44,866 nt of DNA from a virus (IMGVR_UViG_2579778842_000011:1-44866), one strand, 5' to 3'. Shown: positions 36,001 through 36,799, numbered from the stretch's first letter. Notes: generated from the sequence alone by a model not told the origin. Translations and numbers: made by a program.

Positions 36001-36799
36001 TAACAAGGTTTATCTCGATAATGCGATGATTCGTAATGCTGCAATTGGTACAGCCCAGATTAATGATGCGGCGATTACCACGGCTAAAATCGGCAATGCT
36101 GCAATTAACAGCGCGAAGATTCAGGACGGGGCAATCACTAACGCGAAGATCGTAAACGGTGCAATTGATAACGCTAAAATCGGTAACTATATCCAGTCTT
36201 CCAACTGGAACGGATCGACCGGATGGCATATCAACAAGAACGGGTCCGCTACGTTCATGAATGCAACCGTTAAAGGTAATATCACTGCCGATTCTGGTAC
36301 TCTGAACAACGTCACGATTAACTCTAGCTGTGTTATTAAGGGTATGCTCGAAGCTACTCAGGTTAAGGGTGATTTCGTTAAGGTGATTGGACGTAAGTTC
36401 CCGCATCGTGATGTTAACGTTGATAATGGTTATGCTGGTTATCCACAGGGTACGGTCACTGTTCGCGTTGAAGATGATCACAAGTTCGATCGTCAAATCG
36501 TTATTCCGGCAATTAGTTTTGGTGGATTGCGAGCGCGTGAAGGGTCGAACAATAATACCTATTACGACACCTGTCGCCTGATTGTTCGTAAGAATGGGTC
36601 AGAGTTGTATAATAGGGCGTATGGCGGTAATACTGGTCTTTACTCAGGTGTTATTGATATGCCAGCGGGTAAGGGTGCTGTGACCTTGACCTTTGAAGTG
36701 CAATCAAGCGCAATCAACAACTGGACGCCTAGCACATGGATCAGTGATTTAACAGTAATGGTAACTAAAAAAGCCACTACCGGTATTACTGTTTCTTAA
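33023..36799 (+). CDS. Central tail fiber / host specificity protein (lambda J-like), with N-terminal Gly/Ala-rich hydrophobic segment
   Basis: 1258 aa; C-terminal ~180 aa align by eye with recalled lambda J receptor-binding end (NVTI..C.I.G.L.A..V.GD.VK; DDH.FDRQIV; VIDMPAGKG; MV.KK...GI.V). Confidence 0.85.
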   Translation: MGFEVLVGAVIAGASAGMAAAATFSVMTAVAIGMAAGAMTLIASTVGAPKTPKVQSPDNAVTLGTSNDPKTVLPVLFGTTRTGAICVYKAISKQENNKLVQIFAIAEGEIDHYKALFIDNKNVLVGKNMTIRDGVLDKGNIKEEYRKVLEVEFRTGKNPNTALSLAKRHLGSDWNDNYKGNGIATMCIVLRRDDKSLAAGVDILQPNSQVAVDVCGLKIRNLETNAIEASTNGVDQIFHYLTNEKYGLSVPIENINVDSFLKVRKQVRQMDLHSNGACDPNASFKENLTSLMQTFGGVMFESFGRITLKLDAPDIVKHTFNEDNIMMGKVSLKTGGTNGYFNTINAMYQEPSIDYSEQMLRYPADAENDATIRQDGRIIAKDIEYRFVKSKDQIDKLASIERNKSRITQVISFMTTDAFTAEVWDVISVTYDELKLNNSLWRITAIDRSIDSGIAGMMTITATEYNSQVYTDLNYAANPDNRPSGLPDSMTVQKPTNFRIKATGETIYGKNVTLTWDAPEDFNRYGFQIDYRVSGSPNWIKLGQTSQQIFSVNALAKDRSYDYRVCAFGIIARSDWVELINQNPTVTYELPTPVIRIKNQGSTPGTFEGNDLIIEWENQQQLDVEINGETNKFSDLFEAYIIKVTNKAGKSIQYRTRDPESWTYTLDMNQFNGLSRQLTVEVSAKGYNNSESAPARLVAINPQHKPMKGFSARGGFNSVFVSWADDVEHDYAGSIIQYATDNTFSDARAVSTNSVSHTSFDLADGDYYLRAAHYDIFGMDDAVWSEPYFMQMRSTISWDDQDKEALEDLIGLQDRLDETIADAIAQAGANADAKIDAMHKQITTETGQTVQASANTLKSLIATSEQASSTKIDQVKAELKGDIKSEVSASATTLKQAIATSEAASASKIDQVRVEMDGKIAGVNQEADVKIDALKGTINSKYNLAVNADGRVAGIHMSATNDPAQPTRIIFNADKIAVAPQNGSEVCPFGIEGNKVYLDNAMIRNAAIGTAQINDAAITTAKIGNAAINSAKIQDGAITNAKIVNGAIDNAKIGNYIQSSNWNGSTGWHINKNGSATFMNATVKGNITADSGTLNNVTINSSCVIKGMLEATQVKGDFVKVIGRKFPHRDVNVDNGYAGYPQGTVTVRVEDDHKFDRQIVIPAISFGGLRAREGSNNNTYYDTCRLIVRKNGSELYNRAYGGNTGLYSGVIDMPAGKGAVTLTFEVQSSAINNWTPSTWISDLTVMVTKKATTGITVS

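What the first reader, a model, noticed from the sequence alone, without database searches (positions are those of the whole stretch)
36250..36799. Central fiber C-terminus resembles the lambda J receptor-binding domain
Several blocks of the last ~180 residues align with the recalled C-terminus of lambda J, which determines LamB recognition. This predicts a LamB-type maltoporin or related outer-membrane protein as receptor and suggests the receptor-binding domain was exchanged as a module onto an otherwise divergent tail.
Basis: partly seen in the sequence, partly recalled or inferred. Interest (0 to 1): 0.4.

Follow-up and report, generated by a model that had tools for sequence, protein, structure and literature searches.

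The report
Lambda-type receptor-binding domain, non-lambdoid tail tip
The last ~170 residues of this E. coli prophage's tail-tip protein really are a lambda-J-type receptor-binding domain joined to an unrelated tail tip, but lambda is its most distant relative in that family and its closest studied relative binds OmpC, so the homology does not predict LamB.

Summary
ORF 33023-36799 (+, 1258 aa) ends in a Pfam Ig_GpJ_C domain (E 4e-34). Its last 182 aa are 42% identical to lambda J 956-1131 (E 3e-43). An AF2 model matches only solved gpJ receptor-binding domains (RBDs).

The module-exchange idea is supported. Residues 1-948 give no BLAST match to lambda J. Residues 29-1093 are 39% identical to a phage DCP80 protein that lacks Ig_GpJ_C. 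Across 30 alleles of this E. coli prophage family, amino-acid identity falls from ~95% to ~80% over the last ~220 residues. Recombination breakpoints lie near nt 36000 and nt 36320-36390. GC3 shows the exchange is old.

The LamB prediction is not supported. Lambda's RBD is the most distant clade (43%). The closest characterised RBD is A8 gpJ (~50%), which was solved bound to OmpC and works in a lamB deletion. Lambda and A8 are themselves only 44-48% identical yet use different porins. Three of lambda's four specificity loops differ by indels here.

The most likely function is a trimeric tip that docks on a trimeric E. coli porin. My estimates are OmpC ~0.4 and LamB ~0.1. The receptor is untested. 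This is an ordinary, already annotated kind of domain, in an uncharacterised clade on an unusual scaffold.

The parts
33023..36799 (+). Tail-tip / central-fibre gene (1258 aa, J-like). It runs hub, FN3, alpha-helical shaft, beta-prism, RBD.
   Evidence: ORF list and translation. The identical 1258-aa protein is called in NCBI genome GCA_021534865.2. Pfam hits are Phage-tail_3 (weak), fn3 (weak), Phage_Tail_Tip and Ig_GpJ_C. PHROG tail-fibre families match.
33107..36301 (+). Non-lambdoid scaffold (residues 29-1093), homologous to the phage DCP80 tip protein.
   Evidence: The whole BLASTP alignment (query residues 29-1213) is 39% identical (467/1206); recognisable similarity stops near residue 1093. 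Residues 1-948 give no BLAST alignment to lambda J. tblastn of residues 1-959 against 50,697 phage records: no lambdoid J among the 25 records listed; the organism tally of all 123 matching records is Klebsiella 68, Salmonella 14, Escherichia 13, Vibrio 10 and smaller groups.
35816..36070 (+). Phage_Tail_Tip (PF09327) domain, the central straight fibre / beta-prism. It is shared with lambda J and with DCP80.
   Evidence: Pfam residues 932-1016, E 3.5e-18. This domain is why BLAST similarity to lambda J starts at residue 949. It is also present in DCP80.
36035..36184 (+). Five 10-residue repeats xAAIxxAKI (residues 1005-1054), an insertion relative to lambda J.
   Evidence: Regex on the translation. 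The region is a gap in the lambda alignment and is conserved in DCP80.
36287..36391 (+). Lambda-type connector upstream of the Ig domain, with the invariant motif A..GTLNNVT.N..C...G.L (residues 1089-1123). This is the start of the lambda-type module.
   Evidence: These columns are invariant in 40 Ig_GpJ_C proteins. The motif is absent from DCP80 and from Gifsy-2 J. It is the only stretch with DNA-level similarity to E. coli gpJ genes (89-107 nt at 74-78%).
36392..36796 (+). Ig_GpJ_C receptor-binding domain (residues 1124-1258).
   Evidence: Pfam E 4.3e-34. AF2 gives a beta-sandwich with pLDDT 84.5. Foldseek top hits are 9wca, 9wcb, 8xck and 8xcj.
36404..36451 (+). Predicted receptor-contact loop L1 (H1128-G1143), equivalent to the lambda hot spot at residue 1012. 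It is 4 residues longer than lambda's and 8 longer than A8's.
   Evidence: Alignment plus AF2 secondary structure. Hot spots come from PMC6646904. This loop differs most between RBD subtypes in the prophage family.
36521..36568 (+). Predicted loop L2 (G1167-D1182), equivalent to lambda 1048-49. It is 2 residues longer than lambda's.
36611..36640 (+). Predicted loop L3 (N1197-L1206), equivalent to lambda 1077. It has the same length but a different sequence.
36704..36739 (+). Predicted loop L4 (S1228-W1239), equivalent to lambda 1107. It is 1 residue shorter than lambda's. The motif NNWTPST resembles A8's NNWTPTT, and lambda D1107 aligns with N.
   Evidence: Residue 1107 is critical for the OmpF switch.
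36817..36852 (+). Terminator-like hairpin (16-bp stem followed by a T run) 18 nt after the stop codon. It ends the tail operon.
31344..33023 (+). Upstream tail-tip genes. They are a pb9-like distal tail protein, a DUF2163/phiJL001 Gp84-type hub protein and a DUF6950 protein. None is lambda M, L, K or I.
   Evidence: Pfam results.

Best explanation
The region encodes the receptor-binding tip of the central tail fibre of a ~36.6-kb siphovirus prophage. The prophage is integrated in ycdX of an E. coli chromosome.

The protein is a mosaic. A non-lambdoid hub, FN3, helical-shaft and beta-prism scaffold (residues 1 to ~1088) carries a lambda-type connector and an Ig-like RBD of family Ig_GpJ_C (residues ~1089-1258).

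By analogy with the solved lambda gpJ-LamB and A8 gpJ-OmpC complexes, three RBDs at the fibre tip would insert their four variable bottom loops into the extracellular mouth of a trimeric outer-membrane beta-barrel porin. Docking would spread the RBD bases. The conserved top loops (DDHxFDRQ, DMPAGxG) and the connector would then pass the change up the beta-prism to open the tail tip.

Shown here: domain identity, fold, mosaic junctions, and hypervariability of the module.

Inferred: the trimer, the docking mechanism and the receptor. My receptor estimates are OmpC or an OmpC-like general porin ~0.4, another porin or outer-membrane protein ~0.45, and LamB ~0.1.

The module was not recently taken from a lambdoid phage, because its base composition matches the prophage. 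It behaves as an exchangeable, diversifying cassette within this prophage family.
For: Domain and fold:
- Pfam Ig_GpJ_C 117.9 bits.
- 42% identity to lambda J, E 3e-43.
- PDB sequence hits: A8 gpJ E 2e-56, lambda gpJ E ~1e-38.
- AF2 pLDDT 84.5. [quoted passage not shown]

Mechanistic template:
- PMC11101478 describes four bottom loops L1-L4 inserting into LamB, with opening relayed through the beta-prism.

Mosaic structure:
- No lambda similarity in residues 1-948.
- 39% identity to DCP80, with recognisable similarity ending near residue 1093; DCP80 lacks Ig_GpJ_C.
- Gifsy-2 J shares the connector but not the Ig domain.

Cassette behaviour:
- Megablast matches of several E. coli alleles stop at gene nt ~3210 or ~3360-3380.
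- Sliding nt identity drops from ~95% to 51-77% after nt ~36000 (L005, L007), or from ~90% to 46-61% after nt ~36317 (L006, L008).
- Across 30 alleles, amino-acid identity is ~95% for residues 1-996 and ~80% for residues 1037-1258. There are 15 distinct Ig-domain sequences in at least 4 loop subtypes.

Old acquisition:
- RBD GC3 is 0.39, against 0.39 for the scaffold and 0.62 for lambda's RBD.

Receptor leaning:
- The A8 clade is nearer than lambda (53% against 43%).
- The L4 motif is shared with A8.
- A8 and 1A2 use OmpC. Phage 434's fibre uses OmpC.

Host: E. coli.
Against: There are no experimental data for this RBD clade.
- It is only ~50-53% identical to A8 and falls outside the A8 clade.
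- Loops L1-L3 differ from A8 as much as from lambda, and L1 is uniquely long.
- Overall RBD identity demonstrably does not track receptor choice. That weakens the OmpC guess as much as the LamB guess.
- The AF2 model is a monomer, so trimer formation and loop orientation are inferred.
- Whether the prophage is inducible and makes infectious particles is unknown.
Confidence: 0.7

Rival explanations
1. One reading: the domain recognises LamB (maltoporin), as lambda J does.
For: It belongs to the same domain family and fold as the LamB-binding lambda RBD. LamB is present in essentially all E. coli. Lambda-type RBDs can change porin with few mutations (PMC6646904), so specificity cannot be excluded from sequence.
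Against: Lambda's is the most distant of the RBD clades compared (43%). Three of the four specificity loops have indels relative to lambda. Lambda D1107 aligns with N, and lambda S1012 sits at a 4-residue insertion. The closest solved relative binds OmpC. RBDs 44-48% identical to lambda's use OmpC.
Confidence: 0.1
2. The RBD recognises some other outer-membrane protein. Candidates are OmpF, OmpA, a TonB-dependent transporter, or a strain-specific porin variant. None is yet linked to natural Ig_GpJ_C domains.
For: The window clade is at most 59% identical to any lambdoid RBD cluster retrieved. L1 is uniquely extended. Four or more loop subtypes coexist in one prophage family, which suggests shifting targets. 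Evolved lambda J reaches OmpF with four mutations.
Against: All characterised members of the family use trimeric porins: LamB, OmpC, and OmpF in the laboratory. The trimeric RBD geometry is matched to trimeric porins. The L4 motif is shared with the OmpC-binding A8.
Confidence: 0.4
3. The gene is a decaying prophage remnant, and the RBD has no current function.
For: It is prophage-borne, and no isolated phage with this genome is in the phage collection. One relative carries an IS1 insertion in the gene (H123).
Against: The 1258-codon ORF is intact. It is conserved full-length in most of 55 complete E. coli genomes and in ~26 IMG/VR prophages. A complete set of terminase, portal, head, tail, lysis and recombinase genes surrounds it. 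Variation is concentrated in predicted receptor loops and there are no stop codons.
Confidence: 0.04

Closest known systems
A8 gpJ receptor-binding domain (natural E. coli prophage RBD fused to lambda gpJ; PDB 9wca closed, 9wcb open with OmpC of EDL933)
   Same: It has the same Pfam family, the same fold and the same conserved connector motif. It is the best PDB match by sequence (E 2e-56) and by fold. Loop L4 is similar (NNWTPST against NNWTPTT) and shares the 1-residue deletion relative to lambda.
   Different: Identity is only ~50-53% and it is a separate clade. L1 is 8 residues longer here, L2 is 3 shorter, and L3 is unrelated in sequence. A8-type RBDs sit on lambdoid J scaffolds. OmpC use is shown for A8 and is untested here.
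Bacteriophage lambda gpJ C-terminal specificity region (residues 960-1132; PDB 8xck, 8xcj with LamB)
   Same: The domain family, the Ig-like fold and the position at the very C-terminus after a Phage_Tail_Tip beta-prism are the same. The conserved motifs SGTLxNVTI, DDHxFDRQ and DMPAGxG are shared. Hypervariability and indels in four loops match what is described for natural J homologues.
   Different: Identity is 40-42%, and lambda is the most distant clade. There are indels in three of the four specificity loops. The rest of the protein is not detectably lambda-like. The neighbouring genes are not M, L, K, I, lom or stf. A 50-residue repeat insertion precedes the connector.
Escherichia phage DCP80 tip protein XNX25186 (1252 aa)
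   Same: The hub, FN3, shaft, prism and xAAIxxAKI repeats are 39% identical, with recognisable similarity running to about residue 1093. The hydrophobic N-terminus and overall length are the same.
   Different: The C-terminal ~150 residues are unrelated and it has no Ig_GpJ_C domain. DCP80 is a 141-kb virulent phage, not a 37-kb temperate one.
Sibling RBD alleles in the same E. coli ycdX-type prophage family (for example ETEC1718, isolate 23, FDAARGOS_1267)
   Same: The scaffold is the same at ~85-98% nt identity. The flanking genes and the domain family are the same.
   Different: The Ig domain is only 60-82% identical. 'Type B' alleles have a short L1 and different L2-L4.

Membership tests
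Pfam PF12421 Ig_GpJ_C (gpJ C-terminal receptor-binding domain) | Profile match above the curated gathering score | tested here: met
   117.9 bits against a cut-off of 26.2, E 4.3e-34. Residues 1124-1258 cover profile positions 3-135 of 135.
Pfam PF12421 Ig_GpJ_C (gpJ C-terminal receptor-binding domain) | Ig-like beta-sandwich fold superposable on solved gpJ RBDs | tested here: met
   AF2 pLDDT 84.5. Foldseek gives 9wca, 9wcb, 8xck and 8xcj at E 4e-19 to 4e-18, with TM 0.67-0.75. The next hit is at E 2e-4.
Pfam PF12421 Ig_GpJ_C (gpJ C-terminal receptor-binding domain) | Located at the extreme C-terminus of a tail-tip protein, after a Phage_Tail_Tip prism and the conserved SGTLNNVTI...C connector | tested here: met
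   Domain order. Invariant connector columns in 40 family members.
Pfam PF12421 Ig_GpJ_C (gpJ C-terminal receptor-binding domain) | Forms a trimer that binds a trimeric outer-membrane porin | not testable with these tools
   Only a monomer could be modelled. This needs multimer prediction or experiment.
LamB-specific RBDs (lambda type) | Belongs to the lambda RBD clade | tested here: not met
   43% mean identity to the lambda clade, the lowest of all clades compared.
LamB-specific RBDs (lambda type) | Conservation of the specificity loops and critical residues (1012, 1048-49, 1077, 1107) | tested here: not met
   Indels of +4, +2 and -1 in three of the four loops. D1107 aligns with N, and S1012 lies at the insertion. 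Positions come from PMC6646904.
LamB-specific RBDs (lambda type) | Adsorption or infection requires lamB | not testable with these tools
   This needs the induced phage or a gpJ chimera tested on a lamB deletion host.
OmpC-binding gpJ RBDs (A8 type) | Belongs to the A8 RBD clade (at least ~75% identity) | tested here: not met
   53% mean identity. It forms a separate cluster.
OmpC-binding gpJ RBDs (A8 type) | Shares receptor-contact loops with A8 | tested here: inconclusive
   L4 is similar, while L1-L3 differ in length or sequence. The contact residues of 9wcb were not available to me.
OmpC-binding gpJ RBDs (A8 type) | DNA delivery depends on ompC | not testable with these tools
   Experimental test required.
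Lambdoid J protein / lambda-type tail tip (full length) | Hub and FN3 region recognisably homologous to lambda J | tested here: not met
   No BLASTP alignment for residues 1-948. Pfam Phage-tail_3 scores 19.7 bits, below the cut-off of 23. No lambdoid J appears among the 25 listed tblastn hits for residues 1-959.
Lambdoid J protein / lambda-type tail tip (full length) | Gene context M-L-K-I-J-lom-stf-tfa | tested here: not met
   The upstream genes are a pb9-like distal tail protein, DUF2163 and DUF6950. A terminator and lysis-like genes lie downstream.

The most novel reading that the evidence does not exclude
This RBD clade may recognise an E. coli surface protein not yet associated with Ig_GpJ_C domains. 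Its uniquely long L1 loop and the four or more loop subtypes circulating in one prophage family fit that idea. In addition, the lambda-type connector-plus-RBD unit may work as a portable 'sensor head' that triggers tail opening on a hub unrelated in sequence to lambda J. The prophage also carries a side fibre 84% nt-identical to gp37 of T-even Krischvirus phages. It would then be a natural three-way chimera of lambda-like, DCP80/T5-like and T4-like adsorption parts.
Probability: 0.3. Interest if true: 0.45.

Novelty: new member of a known kind. Interest (0 to 1): 0.25.

Why it matters
The result corrects a tempting shortcut, namely that resemblance to lambda J implies LamB. In this family, RBDs 44-48% identical use different porins, and lambda is the window domain's most distant relative.

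It also documents a natural case where the lambda-type connector and RBD sit on a non-lambdoid tail tip and behave as a recombining cassette. Breakpoints map to about nt 36000 and nt 36320-36390.

The junction at the conserved SGTLNNVTI motif is close to the general region exploited in engineered gpJ chimeras for DNA delivery. These alleles (at least four loop subtypes) are therefore ready-made candidates for widening or retargeting such vectors.

Beyond that it is an ordinary phage host-range determinant. RefSeq already labels it 'phage tail tip protein'.

Tried and rejected
- Diversity-generating retroelement as the source of RBD variability. There is no template/variable repeat pair around the RBD, only short chance repeats. 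Rejected.
- Functional antisense genes in the region. ORF 35591-36496 (-) of 301 aa and the 64-aa ORF at 36387-36581 (+) have no Pfam family. I treat them as spurious.
- A Cor/Llp/Lom-type exclusion gene downstream that might reveal the receptor. The next genes are small transmembrane or coiled-coil proteins and an M15 endolysin, with no family hits that help. The 92-aa product is identical in type A and type B carriers, so it is uninformative.
- Gifsy-2 as a further natural reference (from my own recollection, not checked here, it uses OmpC). Its J C-terminus is not an Ig_GpJ_C domain, and only the connector aligns.
- A publication for 9wca/9wcb that would give OmpC contact residues. None is in the library.
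- The search for related loci in GTDB species representatives found nothing. The search for homologous proteins with the RBD returned mainly short fragments. These were useful for clade structure but not for scaffolds.
- Testing whether RBD subtype associates with the host ompC or lamB allele. This was not feasible because the tools cannot fetch a named gene from chosen genomes at scale.

Full report
**What is at the coordinates**

The interval 36250-36799 is the 3' end of a 3777-nt ORF (33023-36799, + strand, 1258 aa). Residue 1077 begins at nt 36251. The identical protein is called in an NCBI E. coli assembly (GCA_021534865.2) and in Logan assemblies.

Pfam finds four domains in N-to-C order:
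- Phage-tail_3, weak.
- fn3, weak.
- Phage_Tail_Tip, residues 932-1016, E 3.5e-18.
- Ig_GpJ_C, 'Tip attachment protein J, C-terminal receptor binding domain', residues 1124-1258, 117.9 bits against a cut-off of 26.2, E 4.3e-34.

**Check of the observation**

I fetched lambda J from NC_001416.
- BLASTP of the last 182 residues gives 77/183 identities (42%), E 3e-43, against J 956-1131.
- The full-length comparison aligns only residues 949-1257 with J 872-1131 (32%, E 4e-36). Nothing upstream aligns.
- An AF2 model of residues 1066-1258, built on 40 homologues, has mean pLDDT 84.5 and is a beta-sandwich.
- Its only strong Foldseek matches in the PDB are the four gpJ RBD entries at E 4e-19 to 4e-18. 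The next hit is at 2e-4.

**Host and element**

- The right flank (ycdY-ycdZ-csgG) is 99% identical to E. coli.
- The left 6 kb is a CP4-like island found in most E. coli.
- The prophage interrupts ycdX. The N-terminal fragment is at 7874-8299. The C-terminal fragment lies just past the window end.
- The element carries a large serine recombinase (42299-43993, - strand) and has ~42% GC.
- It is a complete siphovirus with terminase, portal, head, tape measure and lysis genes.
- The tip gene occurs in 55 of 5426 complete E. coli genomes and in 30 IMG/VR prophage contigs.
- No isolated phage in the 50,697-record collection resembles the genome.

**Is the domain a module on a divergent tail?**

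Yes, on three lines of evidence.

1. Scaffold relatives.
   - tblastn of residues 1-959 against all phage records shows no lambdoid J among the 25 records listed. The organism tally of all 123 matching records is led by Klebsiella, Salmonella, Escherichia and Vibrio phages.
   - The best hit is phage DCP80 at 38%. Vibrio phages and T5-like hub proteins follow at ~20%.
   - The full DCP80 protein aligns at 39% identity overall, with recognisable similarity running from residue 29 to about 1093. This includes five xAAIxxAKI repeats that lambda lacks. Similarity then stops, and DCP80 has no Ig_GpJ_C domain.
   - The lambda-type module begins at about residue 1089, with a motif (A..GTLNNVT.N..C...G.L) that is invariant in 40 Ig_GpJ_C proteins.
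   - Gifsy-2 J shows the converse pattern, with a lambda-like connector followed by a different terminal domain.

2. Breakpoints within the E. coli prophage family.
   - Megablast alignments of several alleles end at gene nt ~3210 or ~3360-3380.
   - Sliding-window nt identity falls from ~95% to 51-77% after nt ~36000 in L005 and L007. It falls from ~90% to 46-61% after nt ~36317 in L006 and L008.
   - Over 30 full-length alleles, mean pairwise amino-acid identity is ~95% for residues 1-996 and ~80% for residues 1037-1258.
   - There are 15 distinct Ig-domain sequences in at least four loop subtypes.

3. Neighbouring genes. The neighbours are a pb9-like distal tail protein, DUF2163 and DUF6950. 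None is lambda M, L, K or I.

The exchange is old.
- RBD GC3 is 0.39, the same as the scaffold and far from lambda's 0.62.
- DNA similarity to E. coli gpJ genes is limited to ~90-107 nt of the connector at 74-78%.
- The window-type RBD occurs on no lambdoid scaffold among the 5426 genomes.

**Does this predict LamB?**

No.
- phmmer against PDB sequences ranks 'A8 gpJ 713' (9wca, 9wcb) first at E 2e-56. Lambda gpJ follows at E ~1e-38.
- 9wcb is the open state of the A8 fibre bound to OmpC of EDL933.
- Brödel et al. built A8 by fusing a natural E. coli prophage gpJ C-terminus to lambda gpJ. They selected it in a lamB deletion strain and showed OmpC-dependent delivery (PMC11338833).
- Phage 434's fibre also uses OmpC (PMC11101478).
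- I clustered 67 distinct RBDs. The window clade is 43% identical to the lambda clade, which is the lowest value. It is 53% identical to the A8 clade, 54% and 59% to two uncharacterised lambdoid clades, and 65% to the 'type B' alleles of its own prophage family.
- Lambda and A8 are 44% identical over the Ig domain and 48% as clade means, yet bind different porins. Identity at this level says nothing about the receptor.

Maddamsetti et al. (PMC6646904) define the specificity region as J 960-1132. It has four indel and entropy hot spots at 1012, 1048-49, 1077-78 and 1107. Residues 1012 and 1107 are critical for the laboratory switch to OmpF.

In my alignment these hot spots coincide with the non-strand segments of the AF2 model:
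- L1 is 4 residues longer than lambda's and 8 longer than A8's.
- L2 is 2 residues longer than lambda's.
- L3 has equal length but a different sequence.
- L4 is 1 residue shorter. It reads AINNWTPSTW, close to A8's GANNWTPTTS and unlike lambda's HSADIPPYTF.
- Lambda D1107 aligns with N.

The intervening loops (DDHxFDRQ, NG, DMPAGxG) are conserved across the family. They alternate with L1-L4 along the chain. I infer from that alternation that they lie on the fibre-facing side.

**Most likely mechanism (inferred)**

My template is PMC11101478. [quoted passage not shown] The RBD bases spread and the tops close. The change then travels through the connector and beta-prism to the helical shaft and FN3 strings, and the tip opens.

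The domain order here is the same as in lambda: hub, FN3, helical region ~800-940, prism, RBD. This holds even though the upstream sequence is unrelated.

Receptor identity is unresolved. On the evidence above I favour OmpC or an OmpC-like general porin (~0.4). LamB is at ~0.1. The remainder goes to other outer-membrane proteins.

The coexistence of several loop subtypes on one scaffold fits tracking of a polymorphic target. OmpC is polymorphic, with 76 variants in 525 genomes. This point is suggestive only.

**Other checks**

- There is no DGR-type repeat.
- Antisense ORFs have no family.
- A strong terminator-like hairpin follows the stop codon.
- The downstream genes look like a lysis cassette, not lom, cor or stf.

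**Verdict**

This is a real lambda-type RBD, correctly located. It is genuinely modular and it diversifies within its prophage family. The LamB inference is unsupported, and on sequence grounds LamB is the least favoured of the characterised receptors.

The domain kind is well known and already annotated. The novelty is limited to an uncharacterised RBD clade on a non-lambdoid scaffold.

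Noticed in passing
window 23400-26918 (+), with 27594-28130 (+): The 1172-aa side-fibre gene is 84% nt-identical over nt 24184-26850 to gp37, the long tail fibre distal subunit of T-even Krischvirus phages (ECD7, RB49, JSE). It carries Gp34_trimer and Peptidase_S74 domains. A Gp38_N adhesin-like ORF lies nearby. This is a recent T4-like graft in a temperate siphovirus.
   Followed up: partly
window 22487-23320 and 26974-27450 (+): Two genes that match the major-tail-protein family PHROG 158 flank the side-fibre gene. The fibre gene may have been inserted into the tail module, or the tube gene may have been duplicated.
   Followed up: no
window 7874-8299 (+) and just beyond the window end (L002:21875-22222): The prophage splits ycdX, a PHP-domain gene, at profile position ~133-137. 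The element therefore spans ~8.3-44.9 kb. A large serine recombinase at 42299-43993 (-) lies next to the right end.
   Followed up: yes
window 1-6650: A CP4-like island (Ag43, antirestriction and toxin-antitoxin genes) abuts tRNA-Ser(GGA) at 6560-6647 (-) and ghrA at 6842-7819. Two mobile elements therefore sit side by side.
   Followed up: partly
window 36035-36184 (+): Five tandem 10-residue repeats xAAIxxAKI occupy tip-protein residues 1005-1054. Lambda J lacks them, and they are almost identical in phage DCP80.
   Followed up: partly
window 33023-33172 (+): The first ~50 residues of the tip protein are strongly hydrophobic (MGFEVLVGAVIAGASAGMAAAATFSVMTAVAIGMAAGAMTLIAS...). No separate gpI-like gene is present. 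This segment may stand in for lambda gpI's membrane-active helices.
   Followed up: no
window 22242-22332 (-): ARAGORN calls a 91-nt tRNA-Gln(UUG) on the minus strand inside the structural module. The length and position are odd, so it may be a false positive.
   Followed up: no
L009 (phage DCP80, PQ671644.1 18679-22437): DCP80 (141 kb) is filed under Straboviridae/Gaprivervirus, yet it encodes a siphovirus-type hub and central-fibre protein. The taxonomy or the record may need checking.
   Followed up: no
E. coli 14EC017, NZ_CP024134.1 2562448-2567001 (hit H123): An IS1A element interrupts the homologous tip gene in this strain.
   Followed up: no
window 38836-40335 (-): A UvsW-like helicase is encoded here. 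A relative, FDAARGOS_1267, has a UvsY-like gene annotated in the corresponding place just downstream of its M15 peptidase gene. Together these add T4-type recombination genes to the mosaic.
   Followed up: no
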